A stretch of DNA of 64,000 nucleotides. Origin: a virus. This document shows, piece by piece, positions 4,301-62,254 of the stretch (the first letter of the stretch is position 1; each line of letters starts with the position of its first letter). A program made the position numbers and the translations under genes. Below the pieces are notes generated by a model. That model had not been told where the DNA came from. It worked only from the letters and a program-made list of their open reading frames with translations, and searched no databases. The stretch lies in IMG/VR virus record IMGVR_UViG_3300021507_000001, positions 5,105-69,104 of that record, one strand, 5' to 3'.

Positions 4301-7300
4301 TAGCTCACCAGCGGTTGCGCCGAGTTTGTTGAAGGTGACTAGCCCCTGCGCTGCTTGGGCGGAGGGATTGTTGCCGAGAAGTCCGGCCAGGCTAGCTAGC
4401 CCCTCTCCGACGCTATTAATTCCAGCGGAGCGGAGCTGATTCTCAATTGTCCCAGCGGTATTTCCGGCGGCTTTTACTCTGCGTGCTTCCCGCTGTGCTT
4501 TCGTTATCGGTGGTGGGGCATCGTGCCCCTCGTCTTGTAACGCTCGCTCGTACTCCGATGGTGGTGTTGTCAGGCCCGGATCGGGTATTCCACTTACTTC
4601 GCTTACTTCCACTGGTGATTCTTCTTGCGGTGGTGTTGCAAAATTGATTGGGGTAGCCGGAGGGGCCTCGGTGGATCGCTCGGCCGGGGCCGCCAGGTGT
4701 ACCCCAGAGGCCCGCGCCATATTTATGCCTAGGGGAACCTGGGGAAGATGTCCCGGCTCAGGCATTGCTAGTGGTTCGGTGACGGTGATTGGTTTCCGTG
4801 TCGCTTGCGGCCCGGGCGCGGCGACTGAATCTGACTTCTGTGTGGGCTGTTTCTCGGACGGAGTAGTCTGGGCCGCTTCTCGCGGGGGTTGTTTGGACGT
4901 GGCGGTCGAATCTGGCTCTTGCGTGGGCTGTTTCTCGGACGGAGCGGTTTGGGTTGCTTCTCGTGTGGGTTGTTCGGGTGCAGTAGCTGGGGCCGGTTTC
5001 TGTTTCTTGGCTAGGTTAATTTCGGCCTTAGGCAGAATATTGGGGCGTTCTTTGTCCTTGGGTTCTGTCCAAAAAGGCTCATAGTACTTCTCATCTTCTT
5101 CCCGGCGTTTCCGAATCACCATGTCTGCCCTGGCACGGGTGGCAGGAGAGACCGGCTGTTTGCTGTATTCCTTTTGAATGGCCCGATAAAGCGCGGCTTG
5201 TTCCTGAACCGCAACCTCTTGTTCTTTGGAGATGCCGGATCCCAACCACGACCGGGGGGTTTTGGGCCATTGTGTATTTTGTACCTTGCCCAAAAGTGTT
5301 TGCCCCATCGGGGTGCTAAGCATTGTGTCTAGCCAGTTCTCGCCAGAGAGCACTTTGCCAGGCGCGTACTCGAAGGCCAGGTTGGGATTGCGGCGTAGTG
5401 CTTCGCCATATTCTGCTACGGCTTGCTGGTTCTTGTCTGTGGCAAATAGCGAGGCAAGGTCGTTGGTGTCGAATACGTATTCGCCAGTTGCACCCTTGGC
5501 TTGCGTAAGTTCCCTGAAGACGTTTTTGAAGATGGTCATTACAGACGCGGGCCGCCCCTTGGAGTAGCGATATGTGAGCTTGCCGTTCTCGATGACGCGC
5601 TCACCATATCCCCTCTTGGCAGAGGCGGTAGCCAACATCTCCACGGCAGCAGCCAGGTGGGGATCGGGGATCGCCTTGCTGGCCTGGCGATATGAATATA
5701 CGTTCTGATGTAGCTCCTCGGCAACGGCTTGCTGCTGCTCGGTCTGGGTGCGCTGCCCAAGCTGTCGTTTCAATATGTTGTAATCTGAACCCGTTAGTCG
5801 TTTCAATAACAGCGCGGACTTGGATGCGTCGGCTAATTGCTCTTGAGAGAATTCGTTCAGGTTGTTGTACTTTTCTTGCACTTCTGCCGCAGAAAGAGGG
5901 AGGTCTAAGACCTCACTACCACGCCCACGCTTTCTCATCTCAAGTGCCATTCTTGTAATGTCGGTCACGGATGCTATTTGGGGCCTGTCTTTCATAAAGA
6001 ACTGGCCCGTGTCGGGGTTAGCCTGTAGCTTGCCAGTGAGAATAGCCATTGCGGGGTCTAGGTCGAAGTCACGGCCCAGTGCTTCTGCAAGAAGCGGGCT
6101 AACAATTGGCCCCATGGCCTGCTCGCCCTTGTACTGACTCATAAAGCGCACGGACAGCTTGCCGATTTCGAAGTCCCTGCCAGTGCCAGGATATCCTGTC
6201 ACGTAGGCCCCAATTTTCTCCTCGGACCCGCTCTGCATTTGTTTCAACAGCCGGTCCTTGTCTTCTTGTCTTGTCACGCCAAGTGCTTTGAAAATGAACT
6301 TGTCTGGCAAGTAAACTTCATTGGGTGCGATGCTAGAGTCAGCCCTAAAAATACCGCTAAATACGTTGGGGCTGTGCATGGCCCCGTGCAGCTGCTTGAT
6401 GGCCTTTGGGCTGGTGGCCATCTTTTGTTGTTCCCCAATAGCCAGGAGAGATGACTTGATTGCTCTACTGCGTATTTCTCTGTCTTTTGAGTCAACATTA
6501 GCAAAGTAGTCGTATGCGGCCTTTGCCATCTTGCTGCTGGTGCCACCAGCATGTAAAGCTCCCTGGCCTGACATCTGGTGTAGTATGGCCTGCGGAGACA
6601 TGAGTACTCCCGCCGCCCCCATGTATATTTGTTTGCCACCTATCTCTGACTCGGCGGCTACTTCCCAGAAGTTCTTGGCTAGGATATCTGCTGGGATGTA
6701 CTCCTCGCCCATTTCCTTTTTCCATGGCCCACCCACGGCGGCAGCTCTCTGGCGAGCGGTGTCCATGATGTTCTCGTATGTGGTGCGATCCTTCCCGCGA
6801 AAGTCTACCAGGTCAGGTCTTTCTAGCTTCGGGTCGGCGGTTCTGGCCGCTGCTTCTATGAGAGAGATCCGCGCAGCGTCCTGTGCGTCTGCTTGTGCGC
6901 GCAGCTGTGCGGCCCCCTCTGTATCATAGCGCGCCATTTCCCTGATCTGCTCGTCAGAGACGTAGTTCTTTTTTCCGGGGTAGCTGCGCATGGGAATCTT
7001 GAGCGAGAAATTTTCTGCGTCTATGCCACGCATGCGCCTTTGTATTAGTAGTTTCCCATCGCCAAGATCTAGGGGTTCTTGAGACGGGTCTATTACGTTT
7101 TCATATCTATACAGCTGGCTGGCAGGAATGACTGTGGGAACCAAAATCTCAGTCATGTCGCGAGGAAGAATTGTGTTGAAGAAATAGTCGGCGGCCCTTT
7201 GAGAGGTCTCGGCATTCCAGGATGCTTGTCTACCCAGTGTGGCAAGCTCTTCTTCTGTGGCGTCGGCTCCCCCAAGGCCAAGTGCCCTAGCGAATTCTGC

Positions 7301-8890: not shown

Positions 8891-9173
8891 AGTTCTTGCC
8901 TCCGCTGATCCGGGGGGCCTGCTGCTGTTGCTGTTTGGCGTTGACAGCACGAATGTACGCGACGTTGTCTAGCGCTGTCTGTACAGCGTCTAGGTCACGC
9001 ATGAATGCCTCTGGCTGGTCAGCCCACCCACCACCAAGAGGAAGGCCATAGCGCTCTACTTTCTTGTACATGGTATAGGTGTCTGGCTCCTCTCCCTCAC
9101 CAGAGAGCAAGTAGTTTGTTATTTCCTTGGCGATCTCCTCATCGCGGCGCGCACGCGCGCCTCTTAAAAAGGG
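8883..9173 (-). CDS. tail assembly chaperone, -1 frameshift extension (gpGT-like)
   Basis: -1 frame continues from slippery site; LPLGGGWADQP motif; ends at TMP start. Confidence 0.75.
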   Translation of the reverse strand, partial: PFLRGARARRDEEIAKEITNYLLSGEGEEPDTYTMYKKVERYGLPLGGGWADQPEAFMRDLDAVQTALDNVAYIRAVNAKQQQQQAPRISGGKNYG

Positions 9174-9586
9174 ATGCGCCACTCTGGTACAACATCGCAT
9201 ACCTGGTTGTGCCAGTCGTACACGATGGAGAGAGGCATTTTCTCTATCTTGTCCATGAAGCTGCGCATTGTCTCGTCCTCGCGCGGCTCGAAGGTGATCT
9301 TGTCCCACTCAGAGACCTCGCCTTCCTCATTCCACTTCTTGGGTATCTCCACCACGAGATTGGTGTCTTGATAGGTAAGCCAGATTTCATTGGCAAAGAG
9401 GTAGGCCAAATTGGCCTCGAGGCTAGTTGATACTCTTTCGCTGCTAACGTTGATACTGCGACCCTTGCCGGCGATGGCAGCGCGCGCAATTGCCGTACTG
9501 TAACTGGGTGGCTTGATTAATACCCAGGTGTCTTCGACGCTAGCGAGTTCCCGTTTCTGCGGCAGAAAATCTGCAATCTTAACCAT
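9164..9586 (-). CDS. tail assembly chaperone (gpG-like)
   Basis: Between tail tube and TMP; AGGAG RBS; ends ATC CCT TTT TAA. Confidence 0.75.
   Translation of the reverse strand: MVKIADFLPQKRELASVEDTWVLIKPPSYSTAIARAAIAGKGRSINVSSERVSTSLEANLAYLFANEIWLTYQDTNLVVEIPKKWNEEGEVSEWDKITFEPREDETMRSFMDKIEKMPLSIVYDWHNQVCDVVPEWRIPF
9167..9173 (-). other. -1 programmed frameshift slippery heptamer C CCT TTT
   Basis: X XXY YYZ pattern in correct phase just before chaperone stop. Confidence 0.8.
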
Positions 9587-9603
9587 AGTGTCTCCTTTGT
9601 GAG

Positions 9604-9633
9604 GACGGGGAGGGAGATGTCGCCCTCCCCGTC
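9604..9633 (-). terminator. GC-rich hairpin after tail tube gene
   Basis: GACGGGGAGGG...CCCTCCCCGTC inverted repeat; no clear U-tract. Confidence 0.5.
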
Positions 9634-9644
9634 TGTAGGCCCGT

Positions 9645-19181: not shown

Positions 19182-19417
19182 CGTTCCTCTTCTGCCGCAG
19201 AAGTTGTGCCCGAAAATGTGGCCCATGTGACTTCATAGGGCGGAAATGCGCTCATGGGCCTGGCTTTCTCAAACACGTACTCCGCTCTTCCTTTGTTTTC
19301 CTGGTGGTTCCTCGTCCGCTTCTCATACGCCATCCGGTACTTGTCGTGTATGATCTCTTCTATGTCCTCTAATAGCTCCTCGTCTTCTTCTCCTTCCCAC
19401 TCTACTACGATGATCAT
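19178..19417 (-). CDS. hypothetical protein
   Basis: ATGA overlap. Confidence 0.5.
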   Translation of the reverse strand: MIIVVEWEGEEDEELLEDIEEIIHDKYRMAYEKRTRNHQENKGRAEYVFEKARPMSAFPPYEVTWATFSGTTSAAEEER

Positions 19418-20046: not shown

Positions 20047-20081
20047 TTCTCCTGCTGCCCCTCACCATAGGGTGGGGAGCA

Positions 20082-20144: not shown

Positions 20145-20149
20145 TGATT

Positions 20150-20269: not shown

Positions 20270-20277
20270 GAATTAAC

Positions 20278-21220: not shown

Positions 21221-21285
21221 GTAGTCTGTACCGGTGGGGGGTTACTCCCCCACCATCGTGGTCAGGCATCGACCGAGCGAAAAGG

Positions 21286-24240: not shown

Positions 24241-24295
24241 GAAGGACTGCCGCTGGCAATTCTGCGGCAGAAGTCTGTAACCAAAAGGAGACGAA

Positions 24296-25198: not shown

Positions 25199-25235
25199 CT
25201 TCTGCCGCAGAAGTCTGTAGTCAAAGGAGGACAAA

Positions 25236-25691: not shown

Positions 25692-26067
25692 CCACTTCTG
25701 CGGCAGAACTTGAATGTTAACAACCTCGATATTGCCGAAAAAGTGGGCTTGGCTCCACGTGTAGGGCTTTTGCAGCTCTGTGGAGAAAATGCCCGCAAAT
25801 GCTTTACATAAATGCTCTGGGGGCGTCATCCGTTGCAGAAAGTAACGCCCTCTGCAATGCCCTCCCACGGCAAAAATTGGCAATTCGTGAGTTGTTAACA
25901 TTCGGGATAAAAATTGGCTTCTGCGGCAGAAAAAGAGGGCTGCCGCCGCAATTCTTACTACTACATCTAGTGGGCCGTTTCCAAAAACAGGTGTAAACAC
26001 GGCCTTTTGGGGCTATTTGGGATTTGCCCCACTAGATGTAGTGGTACTATGCAAAGGAGAGAATACG

Positions 26068-26876: not shown

Positions 26877-26913
26877 TGGTTCTGCGGCAGAAGTTGGCCG
26901 CAAAGGAGACGAC

Positions 26914-27105: not shown

Positions 27106-27710
27106 TGAAAGTTCTATTACTTGAGGGAATTCGTGGGGGTATCTCCACGGTGTTTGGCGTTGGCACTGACAGGAAAGCGCTGGAGACCCTGGCGGTTAAC
27201 CAGGCTTACGAAATGGGACAGTCACTTCCCGTGTTCGAGGAGACGGATGAGCATGGGTGTTCATGTACTTATGACTACCTCCGTACCCCTGGTTATCGAT
27301 ACTGTTGGCAGATTCGTCCTGTTCCTTGGTATGGATCTATTGATCTTGGGGAATCACCAGAGAAACAGCTCTGGAGCAACTTCTGCGGCAGAAATGCCAT
27401 TAACCATAGGAGGATTATGATGAGGAAGTATCAAGAGTTAGTAGACAAGTACCGTATTGACATCGAGCATATTCTCGCGTTGCGCAAGCGCGCAAACGCG
27501 ACACTGGCGAAAATGCCACAGGTCGAGGATTTCGAGGACGGGTATGACTTCCTCGACGCTTGCCGCGATGTCCAAGAGGCGAACGATCAAGAACGTCTTT
27601 TGTTGTATCGAATTCGCAATGAATATAAGGGGTGCCCTTTTCGTAGAACACAAGAAAAGGGGTTGGCCGGATTTCTGCGTGAGTCCGGCTTAGGAGACCC
27701 CAAAGAATGA
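27102..27710 (+). CDS. hypothetical protein
   Basis: GGAGG RBS; STVFGVGTDRKAL. Confidence 0.65.
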   Translation: MMKVLLLEGIRGGISTVFGVGTDRKALETLAVNQAYEMGQSLPVFEETDEHGCSCTYDYLRTPGYRYCWQIRPVPWYGSIDLGESPEKQLWSNFCGRNAINHRRIMMRKYQELVDKYRIDIEHILALRKRANATLAKMPQVEDFEDGYDFLDACRDVQEANDQERLLLYRIRNEYKGCPFRRTQEKGLAGFLRESGLGDPKE

Positions 27711-27946: not shown

Positions 27947-28005
27947 CCCCTTGTTCTTGGTGATCCCTAACTTCTGCGGCAGAAGTGCCGCCAAAGGAGA
28001 CTAAA

Positions 28006-28422: not shown

Positions 28423-28532
28423 TTGAATGCGGCGGTGGCCCTGTGACTAAAAGCGTCACAAAACGAGAGCAGGCTAAGAGGGCTGCTAACGCAATTCTGC
28501 CGCAGAAGTAACTATAACTAGGAGTAAAAGAC

Positions 28533-30001: not shown

Positions 30002-30165
30002 CGTTTCTAGCGTTCTCACACGGTGAGAACGTAGAATATTCTGCATGCAGAATTAACCAGGCACTATATATGCGTTGCGGTTTTACCAGAAGACTGGCAA
30101 GGCCAAGCACTGGCACAGGATGGAATAACACATTTTCCCATTCTTAATCTAGTTAGGAGGACACA

Positions 30166-31710: not shown

Positions 31711-31977
31711 ATGAGAGTGGAAATTGCCGGTTACTCCCGTGGCCACGATTATGTAAATGCCACGAAAGTAAATATTGGAAAGATTACACTCTGGTTTAGC
31801 TACGACGACCTAGTGGCCTTCCAAGTAGATGATAAGCCCCTGGTTATTCGGGAGAATGATTGGGGAACCACCACAGGAAAACACCTCAATGCGATCTGCC
31901 ACGACAAATCTCGTCGTATTTCTGCGGCAGAATTTGAGGCTGCTTTCCAGCAAGTACTGGTGGATCATGGACTATGA
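31711..31977 (+). CDS. hypothetical phage protein
   Basis: FSY...WGTTTGKHLN motif; RBS. Confidence 0.6.
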   Translation: MRVEIAGYSRGHDYVNATKVNIGKITLWFSYDDLVAFQVDDKPLVIRENDWGTTTGKHLNAICHDKSRRISAAEFEAAFQQVLVDHGL

Positions 31978-36923: not shown

Positions 36924-37642
36924 TGTCAAGCATCTGGCACTATGCCGCTATGCGAGACGTAACACCGTCTCAGCGCATAGCGTTCAAGGTGCTGGAAAGT
37001 GCTGTCATGGACAGAGATGTGCAGTTTGCGCTAAGTGAAGACCTTGACATTTGGTTGGTTTTGGCAACAGGCAGAAAGGTAAATATTGAAGAGTGTCGCA
37101 TCCGGCTACTGGCCCGCATGGGAATACGCCGATTGGAGAATGGGGTGAACTTCATTGAAATTGACCTAAAACGCGTCATCGAGGATCTCGGGGTACACTT
37201 TCAGCAAACTTACGTAGGAGAATATACATATTCCTGCCCCGTGTGCGGTGAATCCATTGCGCAAACTGACCAAAAGTGTCCCGTTTGTGAAACGCCAGTG
37301 GTCTGGCTACACAGTAGGGTCTGGCGGGATTTGTACGGCTCGCCAGCAGCGGCCAAGCGAGAGCTAAGTGTAATTCTGCCGCAGAAGCCAGCCGAGACCC
37401 TGGCCCTAAAGCAGCTAGGACTACGCGGCTTTGCCAACACTGCCGAGCAGCGCCGCTTTCAGGATGCGGCGTCATTGCTTAGCGATGACCGCATCCGTGG
37501 TATGGTGCGGTATGTGGCACAAGAACACCGGGGACGGGCTGGTCTCCAACACCTTATCAACTGGATGAAAAAAGAAGCCAAGGGCACACGCAAGTCCAAG
37601 CGTGTTCTGCCTGCAGAACTAGATTTATCAAGTCAGATTTGA
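36920..37642 (+). CDS. zinc-ribbon protein, possible replication accessory
   Basis: CPVC...CPVC; C-terminal LDLSSQI. Confidence 0.6.
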   Translation: MMSSIWHYAAMRDVTPSQRIAFKVLESAVMDRDVQFALSEDLDIWLVLATGRKVNIEECRIRLLARMGIRRLENGVNFIEIDLKRVIEDLGVHFQQTYVGEYTYSCPVCGESIAQTDQKCPVCETPVVWLHSRVWRDLYGSPAAAKRELSVILPQKPAETLALKQLGLRGFANTAEQRRFQDAASLLSDDRIRGMVRYVAQEHRGRAGLQHLINWMKKEAKGTRKSKRVLPAELDLSSQI

Positions 37643-38476: not shown

Positions 38477-39763
38477 ATGCAGCGAAAGGAAGCTGACTTT
38501 AGATTTGCAAGCTCCTTTTTGCGTCGAGAGGGTGAGGATAACGACGCCCCGCTCAATCGATTAGCTGCTTTGCCAGTACCTATCGAGGCCGAGATGTTGA
38601 CAGCCCCCCACTCGCGGAAGCTTTATGAAGTAATCCTTAAGTATGCCGCCAAGCGGCTATCGCTAACACCACAGTTGGCAGCTGAGCTGATTGAGTGGCC
38701 CAAGCTGCTTACTCTGATAGCAGACACACAGAGCGATGCTTTCATGGTCTATGCCGAACAAGTATTGCACTTTGCGCAACTGGAAGAGGTGCGTGGCGCA
38801 GCCGAAGACATCACTCAGGCCGCCGCCGCCGATGATCCGGGAGCTGCCGTTAGCGAAATGGCCCGTCGAGTAGCCATGATCCGCATGAATCAAACAGACC
38901 GCATTGGTTCTGCGGCAGAACACGCGCTGGCCTTCCGTAAAGAGTTCGCTCGAGACCAAGAAAACTTGCGCACCGGCAAAACGCACTTCACTTGGCCTAC
39001 CAATAAGCTGAATGAATACATCCCCATGGTGATGGCCGGCTGGATGATCTTGCTCACCGCAGAAAGCAAAATTGGGAAAACGAGCTTCGCGTCTCAAATT
39101 GCAGACTGGAACGCCACCAAGAACAAGCTGTGCGGTGTCTACTTCCACTTTGAAGACACCCCCAAGATGATGTCGTACCGCCGCATGGCGCGGCGCAACA
39201 TGCTGCAATCACGCAGTGCGCGGGCTGATCCCTCCATGAGAGACATGATGTCCACCGTGCTCTCTGGTGGAAAACGCAAGATCATCGAGCGTACCATTGA
39301 CGAAGTACGGTCCTGGGGGAACAATCTCATCGAGGTGTACTCGGCGGGCTGGACAATGGCGCAAGTGGTGCGTACCTTCTTGCACTTGCATACCAAACAC
39401 AAGATGGATTTCTTCGTGGTGGACTATCTCAATAAAGCCGAGCTGTCACCGGAGACATTGAAAGCCCATGGTGGCCCATGGGGTGGCCGTGGGCACGACG
39501 CTGAATTGCTCAAGCGCACCGCCGAGGCAACAGGAACCGTTGGGCTGCTCTTGCAACAGGAAGTGAAGGGGGTGCCCTATGAGACCAAGATGGGCATACA
39601 AAAATCGCAGGTCTGGTTATCGTTAGACCGCGATCCACTGGACGGGGGAGGGTACGGCCCCTATGGGCACATAGTTGTGCGTGCTGCGAATATGGGACAA
39701 ACAGGTGCTATCGCGGCAATGTTTGACCATAGAGCTATGATGTGGACAGAAACAGAAGCATGA
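38477..39763 (+). CDS. DnaB-like replicative helicase
   Basis: Walker A AESKIGKT, YFHFED, VVDYL, SF4 layout. Confidence 0.85.
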   Translation: MQRKEADFRFASSFLRREGEDNDAPLNRLAALPVPIEAEMLTAPHSRKLYEVILKYAAKRLSLTPQLAAELIEWPKLLTLIADTQSDAFMVYAEQVLHFAQLEEVRGAAEDITQAAAADDPGAAVSEMARRVAMIRMNQTDRIGSAAEHALAFRKEFARDQENLRTGKTHFTWPTNKLNEYIPMVMAGWMILLTAESKIGKTSFASQIADWNATKNKLCGVYFHFEDTPKMMSYRRMARRNMLQSRSARADPSMRDMMSTVLSGGKRKIIERTIDEVRSWGNNLIEVYSAGWTMAQVVRTFLHLHTKHKMDFFVVDYLNKAELSPETLKAHGGPWGGRGHDAELLKRTAEATGTVGLLLQQEVKGVPYETKMGIQKSQVWLSLDRDPLDGGGYGPYGHIVVRAANMGQTGAIAAMFDHRAMMWTETEA

Positions 39764-41215: not shown

Positions 41216-42127
41216 ATGGTTGCTGTCGAGCAATTTCTGTCTAGCTGCCAGCGCGTGTCACATAACGAGTACCACTGTCCTTGTCCATTTCACAATCGCG
41301 GGAAAGACCGCTTCATTGTATGGACAGACCGTGGTAACTGGCTGTGTCCTCGTTGGCATTGTGCTGATTGTCCAGGTACGCCAGATGCCAGGACTGGTGG
41401 CATGAAGGGTTGGCTAGACCAGATAGACCAAGGCTTCGTGGTTAGCAAACCCACAACTTCTGCCGCAGAATATCACTTACCCACTATGGCACTGGTGCTA
41501 AAATACGCCGGTCAGCTAGACCTACCCACCCTTACCTATTTGCGTGGTAGGGGTATTGGTCTGTCTGCCGCCAAAAGGTTTTACCTGGGGACTACAGGAA
41601 AACGACTGACCATTCCTAATCTGGTCAGGGAAAACGGACATCTCAAATGCCTGGGCATCAAGAAGCGCTGGCTGGGCCGGGAGGCAACCGGTCGGTTCAA
41701 GTACATTGTTGAACCAGGCTCGATGGGGTTATCTCTGTTTAACTCGGATCAGCTACGGAATCACCAGTGGAACCGCATGTTTGTGGTGGAAGGGCCGCTG
41801 GACAATATTCTGCTAGCGCGCTTGGGAATTCCTTGCATCTCTCCCTTCGGTGGGGGCGATGTGTGGGATGAGCGATGGAGTGTCTGGGTAACAGAGCACG
41901 TCGACACTCTTATCCATATCATGGATAGGGACGAAAACCACCAGGGAGAACACCATGCCCACCACCGCGCCGAGAGAATAGGCGCCGACGTTCAACATAG
42001 ATTCACCTTTTCTCCTGGTGAAAATAACGACATCACTGCTGCCTGGCAAGCACGGCGTGACCAGAGGGGACGGCTACAAGCCGACGCGGACTTGACGAGA
42101 TGGCTAAAACAAATAGCATTGGAGTAG
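41216..42127 (+). CDS. DNA primase (Zn finger plus TOPRIM)
   Basis: CPFH, YLRGRGI, VVEGPLD, MDRD, NNDI. Confidence 0.85.
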   Translation: MVAVEQFLSSCQRVSHNEYHCPCPFHNRGKDRFIVWTDRGNWLCPRWHCADCPGTPDARTGGMKGWLDQIDQGFVVSKPTTSAAEYHLPTMALVLKYAGQLDLPTLTYLRGRGIGLSAAKRFYLGTTGKRLTIPNLVRENGHLKCLGIKKRWLGREATGRFKYIVEPGSMGLSLFNSDQLRNHQWNRMFVVEGPLDNILLARLGIPCISPFGGGDVWDERWSVWVTEHVDTLIHIMDRDENHQGEHHAHHRAERIGADVQHRFTFSPGENNDITAAWQARRDQRGRLQADADLTRWLKQIALE

Positions 42128-43953: not shown

Positions 43954-44460
43954 ATGGATTTAGATCAGGCATTACACAATATGGCGTGGGGAACCATGAC
44001 GTTAAAGGAGCTCGCTGGTTTTCAGGACGCCTTGTGGGAGCAGGGCGTCGATCATATTTTAAAGCAGGCGCGCCCTGTACAAGAAAAGATCACCAAGAGT
44101 GTAGCGCAGCGGGGGTATGGCCCTGGTGGTCTTGCGCCTGCTGCTTATGCGGCCAAGCAAATGTGCAAAGCTGTTGAGGAGATAGCAGAGCTAGCGAGCT
44201 GTTTCCGCCTGCCCGAATACCTGGCGCGAAGCATCAGCGTAACAGGAGCAATAGCCAGACACTACTTCGATGACCAAGAAGTATGGACAAGAACCTCTCT
44301 TGACGATGAGAAAAGTTCTGCGGCAGAACTAGCAGATGTGCTCATCCCGCTTCTGGTATGCGCCACCGCTCTAGACATTGACGCCTTGGACGAAGCAGAA
44401 AAGAAAGCGTCTGCCGACATACAACGTGGAGTGCGTGGAGAGAAAGCCGCTGCCCCCTAG
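43954..44460 (+). CDS. MazG-like NTP pyrophosphohydrolase
   Basis: KAVEEIAEL...AAELADV pattern. Confidence 0.65.
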   Translation: MDLDQALHNMAWGTMTLKELAGFQDALWEQGVDHILKQARPVQEKITKSVAQRGYGPGGLAPAAYAAKQMCKAVEEIAELASCFRLPEYLARSISVTGAIARHYFDDQEVWTRTSLDDEKSSAAELADVLIPLLVCATALDIDALDEAEKKASADIQRGVRGEKAAAP

Positions 44461-46878: not shown

Positions 46879-46896
46879 TTCTGCCGCAGAAGCCAC

Positions 46897-46924
46897 TTGA
46901 CACCCCGTGGCTCCGTGTTACAAT
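46897..46924 (+). promoter_or_regulatory. sigma70 promoter
   Basis: TTGACA-16-TACAAT with extended TG; 13-bp palindrome just upstream. Confidence 0.7.
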
Positions 46925-46953: not shown

Positions 46954-47106
46954 ATGGAGTACACAGTATTTGTATCACTTAGATGTCCGGCCTGGCTGGA
47001 TCGAGAAGTGCGGATCGAGGCGGCTAAGCACGACATGAACCGCTCGCAGTTCATCATCGCCGCGCTGCAAGAGAAGATACAGCGAGTCCGTCAAGAAGAA
47101 AAATAA
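46954..47106 (+). CDS. ribbon-helix-helix protein (50 aa, not in ORF track)
   Basis: AGGAGGTG RBS; VSLRCPAWLDREVRIEAAKHDMNRSQFIIAAL. Confidence 0.75.
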   Translation: MEYTVFVSLRCPAWLDREVRIEAAKHDMNRSQFIIAALQEKIQRVRQEEK

Positions 47107-48696: not shown

Positions 48697-48953
48697 GACC
48701 CGACACCGCCATTCCACTACCACCAGTAGCTAGGCTATTTGGTATTATCCTTTGGTGGAACAGTAACCGCCAACGCCAACAGCTGTACTGGGGTATGTGT
48801 GATTGCGAAGCCTCGAGAATGTCTGTCACCCAAATCTTCAGCGGGAGACCATCTGAGAAATGTCAGTTCTGCGGCAGAACTGTAGAGCTGGCGCCGCTAT
48901 ATCATCGCACTAAGCAAGGAAAATGGATCAGAAGCACGGAGAAAACACCTAGC

Positions 48954-48982
48954 TTGACAAATACGGGTATAGGTGGTATAAT
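48954..48982 (+). promoter_or_regulatory. consensus sigma70 promoter of Y RNA/Ro operon
   Basis: TTGACA-17-TATAAT with extended TG. Confidence 0.9.
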
Positions 48983-49212: not shown

Positions 49213-49287
49213 GAGGGCGTAGCTCAATCGCAGAGCCACAGTTGTCGCTCAACTGTACAGATGCAGGTGCAAGTCCTGCCGTCCTCT
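49213..49287 (+). tRNA. tRNA-like gene, anticodon undetermined
   Basis: GAGGGCG/CGTCCTC, D arm, T stem GCAGG/CCTGC; 7-bp anticodon stem with 5-nt loop. Confidence 0.6.
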
Positions 49288-49289
49288 CT

Positions 49290-49355: not shown

Positions 49356-49477
49356 GACCTGGTAGCTTAATGGACAAAGCACGTAAACCTGACTGCCGCA
49401 ACTTGCTCAATTTGAGCCGATGGCCCGTCAGTTATCTTGCGAAGATCGTGATATGGGTTCGATGCCCATCCAGGTCA
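49356..49477 (+). ncRNA. tRNA/Y RNA hybrid (permuted YrlA-like)
   Basis: GACCTGG/CCAGGTC acceptor, D and T arms, internal ACTTGCTCAA-T-TTGAGCCGA Ro helix, GTTATC. Confidence 0.75.
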
Positions 49478-52036: not shown

Positions 52037-52486
52037 GTGAAATCTATCACTATCAATGAAGCTGTGGTAAACTTGGCAAAACAACGCCAGCAGATCAAGA
52101 CGATCAAGCAACAAATATCTGCGGCAGAAGCAGAGCTAGCGGCCTCCGATCTGGGACAACAGCTAGCCGTAATGCGTGAGAATCTGAAAAACGCCACGGC
52201 CACAGCGAGCGCCGTCGAGCAAGAGGTGCGAGACACAGCAACCAAAATCTATGACACCTTGGGAGAGAAAACACCTCACCCAGCAGTCAAAATCAAGATG
52301 TACACCGTACTTGACTATGATCCACAGGCTGCTCTGACGTTCTCTGCCAAACACCTACCCAAAGCTCTGCGATTGAACAAAACGGTCTTTGAGCGGGCTG
52401 CCAAGATCATGGGGCCAGACTTTGTCACCATTTCTCAAGAGCGGCGCGCCACCATCGCGCGCGATCTTAGCAAGTATATGGAGTAG
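52037..52486 (+). CDS. coiled-coil protein (Gam/Gp157-like)
   Basis: Coiled coil plus beta C-terminus upstream of ERF. Confidence 0.5.
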   Translation: MKSITINEAVVNLAKQRQQIKTIKQQISAAEAELAASDLGQQLAVMRENLKNATATASAVEQEVRDTATKIYDTLGEKTPHPAVKIKMYTVLDYDPQAALTFSAKHLPKALRLNKTVFERAAKIMGPDFVTISQERRATIARDLSKYME

Positions 52487-54342: not shown

Positions 54343-55337
54343 CGACCACGCCTGAGGAGACAGCAGAAAAGAAGCTATCGGTCTTCCGTAAAGCCATGAT
54401 CAAGGCGATGGGGCCGACCGTCTTCACCATCTTTGATGGACAGCCGCCCCCGGTGTCATCAATTCCCTCTGGGTCACTATCCCTCGATGTCGCTACCGGC
54501 ATCGGGGGGTTTCCCCAGGGAAAGGTAGTAGAGATATACGGGCCGCCAGGCGGCGGCAAATCTACACTGGCTAGTTGCGCCGTGGCCGAGAATCTGCGTG
54601 CCGGCAGGCGTGCTATGTACATCGACGTGGAGCACAAGATTGATCCACGCTATATGCAAGCCTGCGGCGTGGATGTTCTGAGTGACGACTTTCTGTTGGT
54701 AAAACCCACCTGCGCAGAAGACACGATGAGACTCATCATTTCTGCCGCAGAAATGGACGCTATCGACCTGGTGATCGTAGATTCCGTGAGTGCGCTCATC
54801 ACAAGGGCGGAGCTGGAATCAGATCCTGGTGATGTACACGTGGGCATCCAGGCACGCCTGATGAGCCAGAATCTGAAGCACATACACCGCATCCTGAAAA
54901 ACACCTGCGTTGTGTTTCTCAATCAAACACGGGTCGACATCGGCAAGCGTTGGGGCAATCCCGAAGTTACCTCGGCTGGCAAGGCACTGTTGTTCTATGC
55001 CTCGCTGCGAGTCAGGCTAAGTATGATCAAGTTACTGGGTCCAGAGAAAGCGCGCACCGGGCAAACAGTGAAAACAATAGTGAAAAAGAATTCTTGCGCG
55101 GCCCCATATCGCACCGCAGAGTTTGACATTGTGTACGGCAGTGGGATCCATCACGCCAGTGATATTCTGTCTGCCGCCAAAGCAACTGGCGTCATCACCA
55201 CCAAGGGACCATGGTCGTATTATCTTGGTGAGCGCATAGCAAACGGTACTGTCGCAACACAGACATGGCTGGAAGAGAACCCCCAAGTTGCCGACGAGAT
55301 AAGTAGGGCAGTTAGAGCAACAATGCAAACCAAGTAA
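54339..55337 (+). CDS. recA: RecA recombinase
   Basis: GSLSLDVATG, EIYGPPGGGKST, IVDSVSAL, QARLMSQ, GKALLFYASLR. Confidence 0.95.
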   Translation: MTTTPEETAEKKLSVFRKAMIKAMGPTVFTIFDGQPPPVSSIPSGSLSLDVATGIGGFPQGKVVEIYGPPGGGKSTLASCAVAENLRAGRRAMYIDVEHKIDPRYMQACGVDVLSDDFLLVKPTCAEDTMRLIISAAEMDAIDLVIVDSVSALITRAELESDPGDVHVGIQARLMSQNLKHIHRILKNTCVVFLNQTRVDIGKRWGNPEVTSAGKALLFYASLRVRLSMIKLLGPEKARTGQTVKTIVKKNSCAAPYRTAEFDIVYGSGIHHASDILSAAKATGVITTKGPWSYYLGERIANGTVATQTWLEENPQVADEISRAVRATMQTK

Positions 55338-56372: not shown

Positions 56373-56430
56373 AAGAATCACCAGGGAAAGAGGGCTTCTG
56401 CCGCAGAACTCCTTATCCCTGGTGATTCTT
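56373..56430. repeat. composite palindromic element at the convergence of both genome arms
   Basis: 15-bp perfect IR AAGAATCACCAGGGA/TCCCTGGTGATTCTT around TTCTGCCGCAGAA. Confidence 0.85.
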
Positions 56431-59023: not shown

Positions 59024-61160
59024 TTAGCACCTCAGTAAGTTTAGCCAAGACAGCGTCGTCGTGGCGGAAATTAGGCCACCCACCCATGGTATTCACCGTG
59101 AACAGACAGCCACCAACCACATTGGCGGCATAACGGCTTTCGTTGAGTAGCCGCTTGTAGGTTGCTACGTCAGCAGCATATTTGGTTAGTTCGCCAAGAC
59201 ATTCAACCCACCCAGCATTGGGTGGCATGTAACCAGTGGTCTCGATCTTGATTGCGCCGGTCTCACCAAACACCCAGTTGGGCGCAACTCCATTAGCTAC
59301 AAAGTAATCTTGCATCATCTCGAAACGACCCGCATACCATTTCCATTCGTCTTCCAGAAACGACACCCCATCCCTGGCTCCCCAGTAGTTGTGATAGCCC
59401 ATGAAGCCGTTGGCTGCCACGATGTCCTGCGCCAGGGGCAATATTGCCGGAATCTCGTTTGGTTGTGGATTGCCTACAGGGATGGTCGCAACTACAGGCC
59501 GCACCAGAGGGCACTTCTGCCGCAGAACTCGAATGAACTCGCGGTCGAACTGTACGGCGCGCACGATGTTGCTGCCCGCCATGACTTCATTGATGCTCTC
59601 AACGGCCAGCAGCCCCTGCTGTACCTGGGGAATGTCGCTCAGGGCCACCAGGGCTCCCGCGAACTTGTCTACGAAATGATTGACTTTGGCCGAGATGTCG
59701 CCATCCAGGTAGGTGCCGTCGCCGTCTACCCAGTGACGGTAGACCACTAGGGCGTCGGGATTACAGGCCCACACCTTGGTGATGTCACTGACATCAAACA
59801 CCTTGACGACGGCGGGCTTGACAGCCGTAACAAAGTCAGCTACACCCTGTGTCCAATTCTGGACATGCAGCCCGACCTTGTTGGGGTTGGTATTTGTGGC
59901 CTGGAATGAAAATACTGCCATAGCATAGATAGCACGCGCCAGGTCCCAGCCCGGAGCTCCATAGCGTGTGAGCAAGGTGGTAGTATCTCCGCTCCACGGA
60001 TCGATGATCTTGATGTCCTGACCATCCTCGGTCAGCGCATATCCCACCACAAAGTGAGAGTCGTAGTCGCCAGTATGATCATAGTCTACACCCAGGATAA
60101 CCTGGCCGTTGGCAGCCAGCGCAGTCTTTACAGCAGCCACATCAGCGGGGGTGTTTGTCCACTTGGCGTATTCTACAAAGTGAACACCAGGAACGACCTC
60201 GGCCACTTTGGCCCAGTAGAGCAAGTCTGGTCCCTGGGGATGTCCCACAGGCGTATAGCCATCCACCAGCTTGAGCCTGGTGTTGAGCACTCCTGGGGTA
60301 ACGGTCTTATCCACCAGGGAACTGATGATAGCAGATGCCGTAACAGCACAGCCCGCCTTTCCCAATGGGCGCGTGACCATGATGTCGGCGGCCCACTCAG
60401 GATCGCGCATGGAGTAGGGCGTCATCCCCGCCACAGTATCCCCTGGTGTCACAGGTGGCTCCGTGGTGGGCCAGTGGGCTTCGAGTAGAGCAATGACTGC
60501 CTCGAGGCTCAGTGTGCCGTCTGGGGGGACTGGGGGAGGTGTGGGGGCAGAGATTTCGAGGTCTACGGCGCCCCACTGTCCATCGGCGTGCTTCAGCCGC
60601 CATTTGCACCACTCTCTGGTGAAAATGGTGACGGTGGTGTCTACAGCCACTGCTTCTGCCGCAGAAGTCTCTTTATAGGTGTCGTAGTTGCTCACCGGCG
60701 CACTCCACACTACACTTGGTGAGAATGGGTCGGTACCACCGGTTGGGTCGATGCCCACCATCTGCGTGAAATCGCCGGGGCCACCAGAAGATTCGTGGGG
60801 ATTGTCTGCGCCACTATACCAGGCATGTGCATATCCGGTTGCCTTAACAGTAGCACCCGCTGGCACTTCAATCTGTTGGTACAGGCCACTGTGATGTACC
60901 CCATAGAAAGTGAAGCTCTGAAAAGCGAAGTCCTCTTCTGGTAATACACGAGGTGGGTCGAGGTAAGGCGGAGCCTTGGGGATCCGCTTGGTTTCGGGGC
61001 GTCGATAGCCCTGGGTATTGTTGGGGTCCCAGGGAAAGGGATTACCGCCCTCTTCCCACCAGCTCACCCAGGGGCGAGGAGATGAGACCTCATTGTAGAC
61101 TTCTCCATTGTATGTTTCTTGCCAGGGTTCGCCGCTAAAGTGCAGTCGTTTCTTGATCAT
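59016..61160 (-). CDS. multidomain lysin-like hydrolase (CBM-like, C39-like peptidase, glycoside hydrolase-like)
   Basis: GIDPTGGTDP beta-sandwich; GCAVT...SHFV...IDPW; ESINE...FGETG TIM barrel. Confidence 0.7.
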   Translation of the reverse strand: MIKKRLHFSGEPWQETYNGEVYNEVSSPRPWVSWWEEGGNPFPWDPNNTQGYRRPETKRIPKAPPYLDPPRVLPEEDFAFQSFTFYGVHHSGLYQQIEVPAGATVKATGYAHAWYSGADNPHESSGGPGDFTQMVGIDPTGGTDPFSPSVVWSAPVSNYDTYKETSAAEAVAVDTTVTIFTREWCKWRLKHADGQWGAVDLEISAPTPPPVPPDGTLSLEAVIALLEAHWPTTEPPVTPGDTVAGMTPYSMRDPEWAADIMVTRPLGKAGCAVTASAIISSLVDKTVTPGVLNTRLKLVDGYTPVGHPQGPDLLYWAKVAEVVPGVHFVEYAKWTNTPADVAAVKTALAANGQVILGVDYDHTGDYDSHFVVGYALTEDGQDIKIIDPWSGDTTTLLTRYGAPGWDLARAIYAMAVFSFQATNTNPNKVGLHVQNWTQGVADFVTAVKPAVVKVFDVSDITKVWACNPDALVVYRHWVDGDGTYLDGDISAKVNHFVDKFAGALVALSDIPQVQQGLLAVESINEVMAGSNIVRAVQFDREFIRVLRQKCPLVRPVVATIPVGNPQPNEIPAILPLAQDIVAANGFMGYHNYWGARDGVSFLEDEWKWYAGRFEMMQDYFVANGVAPNWVFGETGAIKIETTGYMPPNAGWVECLGELTKYAADVATYKRLLNESRYAANVVGGCLFTVNTMGGWPNFRHDDAVLAKLTEVLSA

Positions 61161-61407
61161 TCTCGATCTCCTTTTTTATCTTATATGCCGGAACAAAAGT
61201 TTTGACACCGCTCATAGTAACAATCTGCTTTTTGCCAGGTATCAACCTGTCCAGAATCTCGTGTAGTTTAGCGCGTGTCGTTTTGGGGCTGATGCCCAAT
61301 TCCTTGGCGATCTCCGCAGTTGTCATGAAGTCGTCTCCCATTTGGGGGATGGCGGCTCGTATTTCTTCCAAGAGGTCATTGTTGGTAAAGTTAGGACTTA
61401 TTGGCAC
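61135..61407 (-). CDS. small wHTH protein
   Basis: MTTAEIAKELGISPKTTRAKL. Confidence 0.65.
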   Translation of the reverse strand: MPISPNFTNNDLLEEIRAAIPQMGDDFMTTAEIAKELGISPKTTRAKLHEILDRLIPGKKQIVTMSGVKTFVPAYKIKKEIENDQETTAL

Positions 61408-62254
61408 GCTTCTTTCCTTTGGTGAATATGGGCTTGAGTGCAGTCTGTGGTATGGCAAAGCACATAGGATGAGCTACTACATAGGGTGGCTCATCCGCAA
61501 TCTCCCACCACACGGCCCCCAGCGAACGTGGCTTGCCGCGATTGGGACGTTTGGACATTTGGGAGAATACGTCTTGTAGCTTCAGGGGCATGTGTGCGCA
61601 AGCGGTGGAAACCTCGTCTTGCAACAATCTGTAGCCGTGGTGGTCGTGTGCCCGCAGCAGCCACAGGTGCTTGGTGGCTGGGTCACAGCCACGGCCAGCG
61701 TTCTCGAAGTAGTCTCGCACCTCTCTCTCGATGGGCATCGCCAGGTTGGTATTGGTGTAGCTCTGGTGGTGGGCCGCGTCGAGCATGACTGTCTTGCTGC
61801 CAAAGATGGGTTGTTGTAGGTGAGAGAAGACTCGCCCACCCCCGCTATTCCTGGTGGTGTCCAGTAGGTCGCCTAGCTGTTCTTCGTGAGCGTCTCCCTT
61901 GCCTACGTGATAGCCACTGCCACTGAGCATAAAGAGGGGGCCACCAGGGACAAGACGTTCTCTGAAAGGATCCAGCAACTCTTTAGCAGCGCGCCCCTGA
62001 TACACGGGGTCGCCCTCGGTGAGGTAGCGTCCGTTCTCGTGGTAGTTCTCGCCCTCGGTCATATCACCAAGAAGCAAAATGGCGTCTAGGCGGTCAGGTA
62101 TCTGCCGCAGAATTTCCTTGAGCACCTTGTTGAGGTAGAGCTGGCCGCGATTAAGACGGGGGCGTGTGCCAGTGGACAACTTCATCCCTGGTGGAAATGC
62201 CGAGAACGCACTTCCTGCGTGCAGGTCGGCCAGCGTCAGAAATGTAAGCCTCAA
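61391..62254 (-). CDS. calcineurin-like metallophosphoesterase
   Basis: ADLHAG, LGDMTEG, GSGYH, AHDH. Confidence 0.8.
   Translation of the reverse strand: MRLTFLTLADLHAGSAFSAFPPGMKLSTGTRPRLNRGQLYLNKVLKEILRQIPDRLDAILLLGDMTEGENYHENGRYLTEGDPVYQGRAAKELLDPFRERLVPGGPLFMLSGSGYHVGKGDAHEEQLGDLLDTTRNSGGGRVFSHLQQPIFGSKTVMLDAAHHQSYTNTNLAMPIEREVRDYFENAGRGCDPATKHLWLLRAHDHHGYRLLQDEVSTACAHMPLKLQDVFSQMSKRPNRGKPRSLGAVWWEIADEPPYVVAHPMCFAIPQTALKPIFTKGKKRANKS

What the first reader, a model, noticed from the sequence alone, without database searches (positions are those of the whole stretch)
5882..62112. Genome-wide 13-bp palindrome TTCTGC(C/G)GCAGAA
At least 23 exact copies were counted by eye, against roughly 0.002 expected at random in 64 kb. 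Near copies occur at 52117 and 62100, and 14-bp variants at 30039 and 37605. It is present inside genes in several frames (SAAE, LPQK, FCGR), so selection or a mutational drive acts on the DNA. Ten copies fall in 21.6-32 kb, several 8-12 nt before an RBS (24260, 25200, 26880, 27972, 28495), and one is next to a -35 box (46879). Candidate roles: operator or stoperator array, nucleoid- or packaging-organising site (matS-like), recombination hotspot for gene cassettes, or a HIP1-like methylation-driven motif (core GCSGC).
Basis: seen in the sequence. Interest (0 to 1): 0.8.

Follow-up and report, generated by a model that had tools for sequence, protein, structure and literature searches.

The report
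Iterated 13-bp palindrome across a phage genome
A 69-kb phage from a vent metagenome carries about two dozen exact copies of one short palindrome, which is also found in unrelated mobile DNA and most likely marks binding sites for a still-unknown regulatory protein.

Summary
TTCTGCSGCAGAA occurs 23 times exactly in the window and 24 times in the 69,104-bp record, against 0 in 100 shuffles. There are also 2 one-mismatch copies, 0 two-mismatch copies and two 14-bp spacing variants. Codon-preserving shuffles give 0.12 copies inside genes against 12 observed, so the selection acts on the DNA. Weaker flank preferences extend it to a 17-bp palindrome. Non-coding DNA is 9% of the window and holds 11 of 25 sites.

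The motif is not private to this phage. It recurs in 45-50%-identical relatives at non-homologous positions, in two unrelated viral contigs (8 exact copies in a 37-kb, 98%-complete genome), and in 17 of 119 metagenome loci, several of them island-like. A subset lies 0-8 nt upstream of a -35 box. No dense bacterial genome was found.

The best reading (about 0.45) is a dispersed operator for a dimeric DNA-binding protein, as with the Cluster O 17-bp repeats, stoperators or KorB OB sites. The binder is unidentified. No ParB/KorB domain is present, and no regulator is shared among carriers. Rivals are a recombination joint, an RNA hairpin and a host-wide motif.

The parts
5882..5894 (.). exact copy, inside the 2535-aa gene (minus strand), read as S-A-A-E
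9555..9567 (.). exact copy, inside gene 9164-9733 (minus), read as L-P-Q-K
19190..19202 (.). exact copy in the last 8 codons of gene 19178-19417 (minus); on the minus strand it ends 8 nt before the next start codon
21676..21688 (.). exact copy, intergenic, with a complementary 6-mer 9 nt upstream
24260..24272 (.). exact copy, intergenic, 19 nt after a stop codon and 23 nt before the ATG at 24296
25200..25212 (.). exact copy, intergenic, 1 nt after a stop codon and 23 nt before the ATG at 25236; full 17-bp palindrome
25696..25708 (.). exact copy, 4 nt after a stop codon, at the left edge of a non-coding stretch of about 370 bp
25919..25931 (.). exact copy inside the same non-coding stretch; 20 nt further on lies a sequence that matches the left flank and first four bases of copy 28495, possibly a truncated second copy
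   Evidence: family D12
26880..26892 (.). exact copy, 3 nt after a stop codon and 22 nt before the ATG of a 14-codon mini-ORF
27381..27393 (.). exact copy read as F-C-G-R in ORF 27102-27710, 25 nt before an internal ATG that has its own Shine-Dalgarno sequence
27972..27984 (.). exact copy, intergenic, 21 nt before the ATG of the RNase H gene; full 17-bp palindrome
28495..28507 (.). exact copy, intergenic, 25 nt before the ATG at 28533
30039..30052 (.). 14-bp variant (the two half-sites 2 nt apart), intergenic after the stop codon at 30001
31920..31932 (.). exact copy, 19 codons from the end of gene 31711-31977, read as S-A-A-E
37374..37386 (.). exact copy inside gene 36920-37642
37605..37618 (.). 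14-bp variant near the end of gene 36920-37642
38908..38920 (.). exact copy inside the DnaB-like helicase gene, read as S-A-A-E
41458..41470 (.). exact copy inside gene 41216-42127 (weak match to a primase zinc ribbon)
44316..44328 (.). exact copy inside gene 43954-44460
46879..46891 (.). exact copy that starts right after the stop codon of the HTH_36 gene and ends 5 nt upstream of the -35 box of the promoter at 46897
46897..46924 (+). sigma-70-like promoter match (11 of 12) that would drive the RHH gene 46954-47106 and the GT2 glycosyltransferase gene
46954..47106 (+). 50-aa ribbon-helix-helix candidate (weak CopG-like match, E 0.011); candidate binder, unproven
48867..48879 (.). exact copy, probably intergenic, 75 nt upstream of the promoter at 48954
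48954..48982 (+). sigma-70-like promoter match (12 of 12) in front of the 48-aa ORF 48989-49135
52117..52129 (.). one-mismatch copy inside gene 52037-52486
54740..54752 (.). exact copy inside the RecA gene, read as S-A-A-E
56374..56429 (.). hairpin with 14-bp arms at the junction of the convergent plus and minus gene blocks, with exact copy 56396-56408 at its centre
59515..59527 (.). exact copy inside the 714-aa gene (minus)
60654..60666 (.). exact copy inside the 714-aa gene (minus), read as S-A-A-E
62100..62112 (.). one-mismatch copy inside gene 61391-62254 (minus)

Best explanation
The palindrome is a dispersed protein-binding site on double-stranded DNA. It is an operator-type site for a dimeric, highly sequence-specific DNA-binding protein. 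Each monomer would read one half-site, ACTTCTGC, and the centre must be a G:C pair in either orientation. Sites just upstream of -35 boxes would act directly on transcription initiation. Sites between genes and inside genes would act at a distance, for example as roadblocks, silencing or loading sites, or as genome-organising sites. This resembles the stoperators of Cluster A mycobacteriophages, the KorB OB sites of plasmid RK2, and the unexplained 17-bp dyad repeats of Cluster O mycobacteriophages. Shown here: the enrichment, the DNA-level selection, the symmetry, the intergenic and promoter-proximal bias, and the sharing among unrelated mobile elements. Inferred: that a protein binds, that it is a dimer, and what binding does. 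The binder is unknown. It is either a small, fast-evolving protein of the elements themselves (in this phage the RHH candidates at 46954 or 48989) or a host protein of the lineage that these elements infect.
For: (1) The enrichment is extreme and the sites are sharply defined: 24 exact, 2 one-mismatch and 0 two-mismatch copies in 69,104 bp.
(2) Selection is on the DNA: 12 copies inside genes against 0.12 in codon-preserving shuffles; all three frames are used, with the mildest reading (S-A-A-E) in 9 of 14 sites.
(3) The flanks are symmetric. In the window, -2 is A in 16 of 25 and +2 is T in 17 of 25. Over 147 non-redundant arms from 21 contigs, +1 is G in 88 and +2 is T in 91. The centre is always C or G in the window (25 of 25), in G010 (8 of 8) and in G006 (4 of 4). 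The -1/+1 pairs are complementary in 9 of 25 sites, by my count on the listing, against about 7.4 expected if the two sides are independent. The flanks therefore look like two independent half-site preferences, not a base-paired stem.
(4) 11 of 25 sites lie in the 9% of the window that is non-coding, about 8 times the coding density.
(5) There is a promoter-proximal class. A -10-like hexamer lies 22-31 nt from the motif end in 12 arms (13 hits in those 10 offsets, against 8 hits in the other 50 offsets). This includes window 46879 (5 nt from -35) and G010 10766 (8 nt from -35). KorB OB-proximal sites lie 4-10 bp upstream of promoters (PMC11790492, passages).
(6) The motif is kept while its positions turn over in relatives at 43-52% protein identity.
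(7) The RNA hairpin of the 13-mer is weak (-1.7 kcal/mol) and forms in the predicted structure of only 1 of 7 start-proximal contexts.
(8) Precedent: Corndog has 34 copies of a 17-bp dyad repeat with invariant arms, 14 of them intergenic and about a third in coding regions. Its authors predict a dimeric DNA-binding protein (PMC4351075, passages).
Against: No binder is identified. tblastn (E up to 1) with the two RHH candidates, two HTH candidates and the HTH_36 protein finds no homologue in 18 motif-rich contigs, including the 98%-complete G010. A conserved element-encoded binder is therefore not seen. No ParB_N or KorB domain is found in 5 of 5 records searched. The near absence of degenerate copies is unusual for transcription-factor sites. 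7 of 25 sites have a flanking 6-mer complementary to the core, against 2.5 expected (P about 0.0065). All 7 lie between 21.6 and 32 kb, which hints at an RNA or single-strand structure there. Two independent homology breakpoints fall exactly at the motif, which fits a recombination role as well. Most sites are far from any predicted promoter.
Confidence: 0.45

Rival explanations
1. The motif is a recombination joint. A site-specific enzyme, or plain short-homology recombination between the identical 13-17-bp copies, exchanges gene cassettes within and between mobile elements of one host lineage. The motif therefore marks module boundaries.
For: In the early block the motif plus a similar leader precedes non-homologous genes: a paralogous gene family, RNase H, an 84-aa gene and a 14-codon remnant. 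Among 78 sites, 5 pairs share one flank at 80% or more while the other flank is 45% or less. These reduce to 2 independent events, L367:3105 and L367:1997 versus L278:3365. A sequence matching the left flank and first four bases of copy 28495 lies 20 nt after copy 25919, which looks like a truncated copy. Carriers are mosaic and hold group II introns, restriction-modification genes and a comM/yifB fragment. The motif is shared by otherwise unrelated elements.
Against: 14 of 25 sites lie inside genes, including RecA, DnaB and a 2535-aa gene, where cassette borders make no sense. Arms of 6-8 bp with a 1-bp centre are smaller than the sites of known tyrosine or serine recombinases (my own knowledge, not tested). 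No recombinase is shared by the carriers. In Cluster O phages the comparable repeats were rarely at rearrangement points (PMC4351075, passage). Breakpoints at any conserved regulatory site can arise passively.
Confidence: 0.15
2. The motif acts as an RNA or single-stranded-DNA hairpin: a processing, stabilising or translational-control element in polycistronic early transcripts, or a hairpin signal for a polymerase or primase.
For: Six sites end 21-25 nt before a start codon, about 10 nt before the Shine-Dalgarno sequence, while their distance from the upstream stop codon varies from 1 to 72 nt. Other hairpin families occupy the same position in neighbouring blocks, at 20-22.4 kb and at 30.66 and 31.04 kb. 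Flanking segments complementary to the core are enriched, 7 of 25 against 2.5 expected. A palindrome gives the same hairpin whichever strand is transcribed.
Against: The 13-mer hairpin has only -1.7 kcal/mol and the 17-mer -5.9 kcal/mol. The motif's own hairpin appears in the predicted structure of 1 of 7 contexts. A structural element should show covariation, not an invariant sequence. The flank pairs show no excess complementarity (9 of 25 against 7.4 expected, counted). The start-proximal sites belong to duplicated cassettes and are not independent. No RNA polymerase gene was recognised among the proteins scanned.
Confidence: 0.12
3. The motif is a host-genome signature, such as a highly iterated palindrome, an uptake-type or nuclease-attenuating signal, or the product of a repair or methylation bias. 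Phages and islands of that host share it by amelioration or mimicry.
For: Unrelated phages carry it. G000, G006 and G010 share only a tail-fibre-like protein, which suggests a common host range. Island-like contigs with WD40 giants, an FGE-sulfatase-domain protein and a comM/yifB fragment carry it too. Exactness without degenerate copies is typical of such genome signatures (my own knowledge).
Against: In 401 sampled Chloroflexota genomes, 41 have a match and the maximum is 3 per genome; the reversed-pattern control gives similar numbers. The 5 genomes whose ComM is closest (81-85%) to the island-like contigs have 0 copies. The one genome with 13 copies owes them all to an unrelated tandem-repeat element. 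Of 85 ORFs in motif-rich metagenome loci, the commonest families are those of conflict or island genes, not core metabolism. The true host is unknown, so this reading is not excluded.
Confidence: 0.12

Closest known systems
17-bp dyad repeats of Cluster O mycobacteriophages (Corndog and relatives; PMC4351075, abstract and passages read)
   Same: The genomes are about 70 kb and hold some 30 copies of a short palindrome spread over the whole genome. The arms are invariant, with only a handful of one-mismatch copies. Sites are a mix of intergenic and intragenic and are denser in the non-structural half. There is no clear orientation relative to transcription. The function is unknown and the authors predict a dimeric binder.
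   Different: The sequence differs (7-bp arms with a 3-bp centre, against 6-8-bp arms with a 1-bp G:C centre). The Cluster O repeats are reported within one cluster of closely related phages. Here the motif is shared by unrelated viral and island-like contigs. Here a subset abuts -35 boxes.
KorB operators (OB) of IncP plasmid RK2 (PMC11790492, abstract and passages read)
   Same: The OB core printed in that paper is a 13-bp palindrome with a central G:C pair that matches this motif at 9 of 13 positions. OB sites are dispersed over the replicon. Proximal sites lie 4-10 bp upstream of promoters and distal ones from 45 bp to more than 1 kb away. Here sites lie 0-8 nt from -35 boxes, and many others are distant or intragenic.
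   Different: No ParB_N and no KorB domain is found in 5 of 5 records, including two near-complete phage genomes. ParA is present only in G010. No KorA-type second operator was looked for. This is a resemblance in how the sites are laid out, not membership.
Stoperators of Cluster A mycobacteriophages (PMC6550527 passages, PMC9283540 abstract)
   Same: They are 13-bp sites, up to about 30 per genome, inside and between genes, bound by one repressor that also blocks elongation. The density is similar.
   Different: Stoperators are asymmetric, are bound by a monomer, and mostly point one way relative to transcription. This motif is a palindrome, and its only asymmetric base shows at most a weak bias (G on the coding strand in 17 of 25 sites, counted). 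No immunity repressor or integrase was recognised in this phage.
HIP1-type highly iterated palindromes of cyanobacterial genomes (recalled; no paper read)
   Same: An exact short palindrome is over-represented inside and outside genes and is also carried by phages of the same hosts.
   Different: HIP1 is a chromosome-wide feature. Here no dense chromosome was found, and the carriers seen are phages and island-like DNA.

Membership tests
KorB/ParB-type clamp with dispersed OB/parS-like loading sites | Palindromic operator dispersed over the replicon, with promoter-proximal sites (4-10 bp upstream) and distal sites | tested here: met
   Window 46879 lies 5 nt and G010 10766 lies 8 nt upstream of a -35 box. 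12 of 147 arms have a -10-like hexamer 22-31 nt away. Most other sites are distal or intragenic. The definition is from PMC11790492.
KorB/ParB-type clamp with dispersed OB/parS-like loading sites | The element encodes a ParB_N (CTPase) or KorB DNA-binding-domain protein | tested here: not met
   PF02195 and PF08535 searched in six frames: 0 of 5 records (G000, G006, G010, G003, G001) have a match at E up to 1. The controls found the families in 11 and 10 of 14 named genomes.
KorB/ParB-type clamp with dispersed OB/parS-like loading sites | CTP-dependent loading and sliding from the site | not testable with these tools
   Needs biochemistry.
Cluster A stoperator system | Asymmetric 13-bp site with one predominant orientation relative to transcription | tested here: not met
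   The site is a perfect palindrome apart from its centre. The centre is G on the coding strand in 17 of 25 sites, a weak bias at most.
Cluster A stoperator system | Cognate immunity repressor encoded by the phage and co-varying with the site | tested here: inconclusive
   Candidates exist (RHH 46954, 48989; HTH 61135, 34203), but none has a homologue in the other carriers. Binding was not tested.
Cluster A stoperator system | Tens of sites inside and between genes across the genome | tested here: met
   There are 26 sites in 69 kb. In the window 14 are intragenic and 11 intergenic.
Cluster O-type dispersed dyad repeats (a descriptive class; function unknown) | About 30 copies with invariant inverted arms, few variants, spread genome-wide, both intergenic and intragenic | tested here: met
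   24 exact, 2 one-mismatch and 2 spacing variants; 11 of 25 intergenic. Compare with the passages of PMC4351075.
Cluster O-type dispersed dyad repeats (a descriptive class; function unknown) | Same repeat sequence, or related phages | tested here: not met
   The sequence and arm geometry differ. There is no DNA or large-terminase match to any of 50,697 deposited phage records.
Host-wide iterated palindrome (HIP1-like) | Comparable density in the host chromosome | tested here: inconclusive
   The host is unknown. 401 Chloroflexota genomes have at most 3 copies each. The 5 genomes closest by ComM have 0 copies.
Host-wide iterated palindrome (HIP1-like) | Cognate methyltransferase or repair bias acting on the core | not tested
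   No methyltransferase was recognised among the phage proteins scanned. Methylome data are not available.
Start-associated sequences (Cluster K mycobacteriophages; known here only through a passage of PMC4351075) | Repeat closely linked to translation initiation sites | tested here: not met
   Only 7 of 25 sites lie 8-25 nt before a start codon, and they belong to duplicated cassettes. The other 18 do not.

The most novel reading that the evidence does not exclude
The palindrome is a shared address label of a whole mobilome. Phages of at least three unrelated kinds, and integrative or defence-island DNA of an uncultured lineage (possibly Chloroflexota), would all keep dozens of exact copies because one trans-acting factor reads them. 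That factor could be a host protein that silences or organises foreign DNA, or a widely exchanged element protein. The same sites would double as joints where modules are swapped between elements. This would give the unexplained Cluster O-type repeats a function and would be the first case where such a site is conserved across unrelated elements rather than within one phage cluster.
Probability: 0.2. Interest if true: 0.8.

Novelty: new variant of a known kind. Interest (0 to 1): 0.62.

Why it matters
Dispersed exact palindromes in phage genomes have been described. For stoperators and for plasmid KorB sites the function is known. For the Cluster O repeats it is still unknown. This case adds a new sequence in a phage with no match among deposited phages. 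It also shows that the same site is iterated in unrelated phages and island-like DNA from several metagenomes while its positions turn over. That pattern points to a trans-acting reader common to a host lineage or its mobilome.

Tried and rejected
- A Thermoanaerobaculia genome (G007) has 13 copies, but all lie in one tandem-repeat element of about 21-bp units peculiar to that genome. I treat this as coincidence.
- ParB/KorB membership was rejected because no ParB_N or KorB domain was found. ParA occurs only in G010.
- The small ImmA/IrrE-like or SprT-like metalloprotease shared by G000 and G010 (41% over 98 aa) was considered as a link to a cleavable repressor. Its look-alikes are common small phage and prophage proteins, so I gave it no weight.
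- Phage RecA is 41-42% identical to RecA of three full-length hits from different phyla, which says nothing about the host.
- There is no DNA match and no large-terminase match in 50,697 phage records. The 405-aa protein and DnaB have no close relatives in IMG/VR. The conserved module of about 350 bp from the metagenome carriers is absent from PLSDB and from the phage records.
- The full 13-mer forms occur in 0 papers of the library. The 540 hits hold only the 9-mer cores, in unrelated papers such as primer lists.
- Sequencing runs: two DNA holders, no RNA holder listed.
- A virion-RNA-polymerase hairpin-promoter reading (N4-like, recalled) was considered because of the 2535-aa gene. PHROGs gives no hit for that protein, and sites inside late genes on both strands do not fit.
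- The small ORF in the conserved metagenome module is not kept in frame across contigs, so it is not a candidate binder.
- Structure prediction, fold search and complex prediction were not used, because no protein-protein claim is made.
- Supplementary files of the papers were not seen. The site tables of PMC6550527 and PMC4351075 might refine the comparison.


Full report
**Observation**

The window is bases 5105-69104 of a 69,104-bp single-contig virus record. Its completeness is estimated at 81%. The whole record has 24 exact copies, 2 one-mismatch copies (52117 and 62100) and no two-mismatch copy. Two 14-bp variants with the half-sites 2 nt apart lie at 30039 and 37605. The centre is C in 13 sites and G in 12, and never A or T.

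Flank preferences are symmetric:
- In the window, -2 is A in 16 of 25 sites and +2 is T in 17 of 25; -1 is C in 11 and +1 is G in 11.
- Over 147 non-redundant arms from 21 contigs, +1 is G in 88 and +2 is T in 91.

The full site is therefore a 17-bp palindrome with a strict 13-bp core.

**The phage**

Genes run leftward at 1-20 kb. This block holds the 2535-aa protein, a tail protein, the major head protein, the portal and the large terminase. Genes run rightward at 20-56.4 kb. This block holds many small early genes, RNase H, an HNH endonuclease, SSB, DnaB, a DnaD-like HTH_36 protein, a GT2 glycosyltransferase, Ro60/TROVE, ERF and RecA. Genes run leftward again at 56.4-64 kb.

There is no DNA match and no large-terminase match in 50,697 deposited phage records. 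Two DNA runs labelled 'hydrothermal vent metagenome' hold the sequence.

**Selection acts on the DNA**

My list of 98 genes covers 91% of the window. Of the 25 sites, 14 are intragenic and 11 intergenic, which is about 8 times denser outside genes. Codon-preserving shuffles give a mean of 0.12 exact copies inside genes (maximum 2 in 300 shuffles) against 12 observed. All three frames are used. The mildest reading, S-A-A-E, accounts for 9 of the 14 intragenic sites. The same bias appears in other carriers. This is what DNA-level selection filtered by protein tolerance should look like.

**Position classes**

- Start-proximal. Sites 24260, 25200, 26880, 27381, 27972 and 28495 end 21-25 nt before a start codon, while their distance from the upstream stop varies from 1 to 72 nt. 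Site 19190 does the same on the minus strand, at 8 nt. They sit in a block of duplicated small-gene cassettes, so they are not independent. The same motif-plus-leader also precedes non-homologous genes such as RNase H.
- Promoter-proximal. Site 46879 starts right after a stop codon and ends 5 nt before the -35 box of an 11-of-12 sigma-70-like match, which would drive a 50-aa RHH candidate and the GT2 gene. Site 48867 lies 75 nt upstream of a 12-of-12 promoter match. Across all carriers, a -10-like hexamer lies 22-31 nt from the motif end in 12 of 147 arms. That is 13 hits in 10 offsets, against 8 hits in the other 50 offsets.
- Terminal. Site 56396 is the centre of a hairpin with 14-bp arms where the convergent gene blocks meet.
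- Intragenic. These sites lie far from any predicted promoter.

**The motif is not private to this phage**

Structural-module relatives, with large-terminase identity of 49%, carry it. G003 has 2 exact copies plus 3 one-mismatch copies in 26 kb, and G004, G001 and G002 each have one or two. The sites are not at homologous positions, and some have an A:T centre.

Two other viral contigs carry it:
- G006 is 18 kb and has 4 exact copies plus 3 near copies.
- G010 is 37.5 kb and 98% complete, with 8 exact copies and 0 one-mismatch copies.

These two share with the window phage only a tail-fibre-like protein. G010 also shares a small ImmA/IrrE-like metalloprotease, whose look-alikes are common phage proteins.

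It gave 17 loci with two or more copies of the 13-mer, up to 8 copies in 14.9 kb. These loci include:
- a replication module distantly related to the window (DnaB 38%, primase-like 40%);
- further structural relatives;
- a copy of G010;
- a group of mosaic contigs.

The mosaic contigs share a module of about 350 bp, conserved at the nucleotide level, that contains the motif at promoters. They also carry group II introns, Eco57I-type and Mrr-type genes, WD40 giants, an FGE-sulfatase-domain protein and a comM/yifB fragment. Homology between these contigs breaks exactly at the motif in two independent cases.

**Host question**

The comM fragment is 71% identical to that of a genome titled 'uncultured Chloroflexia'. 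It is 67% identical to a Caldilineaceae genome, 54-56% to a cyanobacterium and a Thermoanaerobaculia genome, and 45% to a Planctomycetota genome. The best value among 121 genomes of that class is 85%. This places the island-like carriers, but not necessarily the window phage, in Chloroflexota.

- The 5 closest genomes have 0 copies of the motif.
- Of 401 sampled Chloroflexota genomes, 41 have a match and none has more than 3; the reversed-pattern control gives similar numbers.
- The one genome with 13 copies owes them all to an unrelated tandem repeat.

So no dense chromosome was found. The true host is unknown, however, and the samples are partial.

**Mechanism**

The evidence fits a sequence-specific dimeric protein that binds duplex DNA: a strict symmetric core, symmetric and mutually independent flank preferences, a centre that must be G:C in either orientation, enrichment between genes, and a class abutting -35 boxes.

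The RNA hairpin of the core is weak, at -1.7 kcal/mol for the 13-mer and -5.9 for the 17-mer. It forms in the predicted structure of 1 of 7 contexts. However, 7 of 25 sites have a flanking segment complementary to the core, against 2.5 expected. All of them lie between 21.6 and 32 kb, so a structural role there is not excluded.

The binder is not identified. None of the window's RHH or HTH candidates has a homologue in 18 motif-rich contigs. No ParB_N or KorB domain is present in 5 of 5 records. ParA is present only in G010. This absence of a shared element protein leans towards a host-encoded reader, or towards small readers too divergent for BLAST. I cannot tell which.

**Comparison with known systems**

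The closest description is the 17-bp dyad repeat of Cluster O mycobacteriophages (PMC4351075, passages). Corndog has 34 copies with invariant arms plus 3 one-mismatch variants. Fourteen are intergenic and about a third lie in coding regions. The function is unknown and the authors predict a dimeric binder.

In site layout it resembles the KorB OB sites of RK2 (PMC11790492, passages). The OB core printed in that paper is a 13-bp palindrome identical to this motif at 9 of 13 positions. OB sites lie 4-10 bp or 45 to more than 1000 bp upstream of promoters. Membership fails on the protein test.

Stoperators (PMC6550527 passages, PMC9283540 abstract) share the number and spread of sites, but they are asymmetric and oriented.

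The full 13-mer forms occur in no paper of the searchable library.

**Verdict**

This is a real, strongly selected, dispersed palindromic site. It is most likely a protein-binding operator-type element (confidence about 0.45). The rivals are a recombination joint (0.15), an RNA or single-strand hairpin (0.12) and a host signature (0.12). It is a new variant of a known but poorly understood kind. Its distinguishing feature is conservation across unrelated mobile elements.

Noticed in passing
window 49213-49288, 49356-49477 and 49597-51204: A tRNA-Ala (CGC) gene and a second, 122-nt tRNA-like element (Rfam tRNA, 41.3 bits, with a long insertion) lie directly upstream of a Ro60/TROVE gene. This could be a phage Ro60 with a tRNA-like Y RNA partner, or an intron-containing tRNA.
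   Followed up: partly
window 20046-22420: A 61% G+C block of tiny genes. Each intergenic region has a long hairpin, then a short G+C-rich hairpin of 6 bp stem and 5 nt loop, about 8-13 nt before a strong Shine-Dalgarno sequence. This is the position the palindrome occupies in the next block. Fragments resembling tRNA T-arms occur at about 20290-20330 and 21320-21355; ARAGORN and Rfam call no tRNA there.
   Followed up: partly
window 30659-30704, 31041-31086 and 22068-22088: A third hairpin family lies upstream of ribosome-binding sites. The two long copies have the same 7-bp stem, but their 8-nt loops are reverse complements of each other.
   Followed up: no
window 26441-26580: A non-coding stretch packed with TGTACA-containing short repeats in front of the gene at 26592, possibly a separate operator cluster.
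   Followed up: no
window 25709-25918: 13-bp inverted repeats lie just inside the two palindrome copies at 25696 and 25919 and bracket about 190 bp of non-coding DNA. A further 15-bp inverted repeat pair follows at about 25960-26045. This may be a small RNA gene, an origin or a remnant of an element.
   Followed up: no
window 24296-27946: Two families of paralogous small genes. One is the pair at 24296 and 25236. The other comprises the genes at 26068, 27102 and 27707; its members at 27102 and 27707 carry the same short sequence (W/G-E-S-P) at or near their ends. The family includes a read-through fusion at 27102-27710 and a 14-codon remnant at 26915.
   Followed up: partly
record ends (L255:1-2082 and window 62662-63999): An ORF runs off each end of the record on the minus strand, as expected if one tail-fibre-like gene (with CBM_4_9, Laminin_G_3 and lamin-tail-like domains) spans the junction of a circular or permuted genome.
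   Followed up: no
L334:4610-5430, L354:3796-5926, L367:3216-3345: Group II introns (Rfam D1-D4 and domain V/VI models) lie in three of the motif-rich metagenome contigs, within about 100-1100 bp of a palindrome copy.
   Followed up: no
L293:4250-4650 and its counterparts in L367, L366, L313, L278, L354, L276, L332, L371: A module of about 350 bp, conserved at 80-95% nucleotide identity, is shared by otherwise different contigs. It has three sigma-70-like promoters, a bidirectional terminator-like hairpin, one full palindrome abutting a -35 region and extra half-sites. No reading frame is kept across the contigs, so it may encode small RNAs.
   Followed up: partly
L250:2200-2470 and L251:2030-2230 (genome G007): A Thermoanaerobaculia genome has arrays of degenerate repeats of about 21 bp that produce the same 13-mer by chance. 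They are often near contig ends.
   Followed up: partly
L266:10453-10766 (G010, minus strand): A palindrome copy lies 8 nt upstream of a consensus-like promoter. It is followed by a nearly leaderless 70-aa ORF and a strong terminator-like hairpin, forming a self-contained small gene of unknown function.
   Followed up: partly
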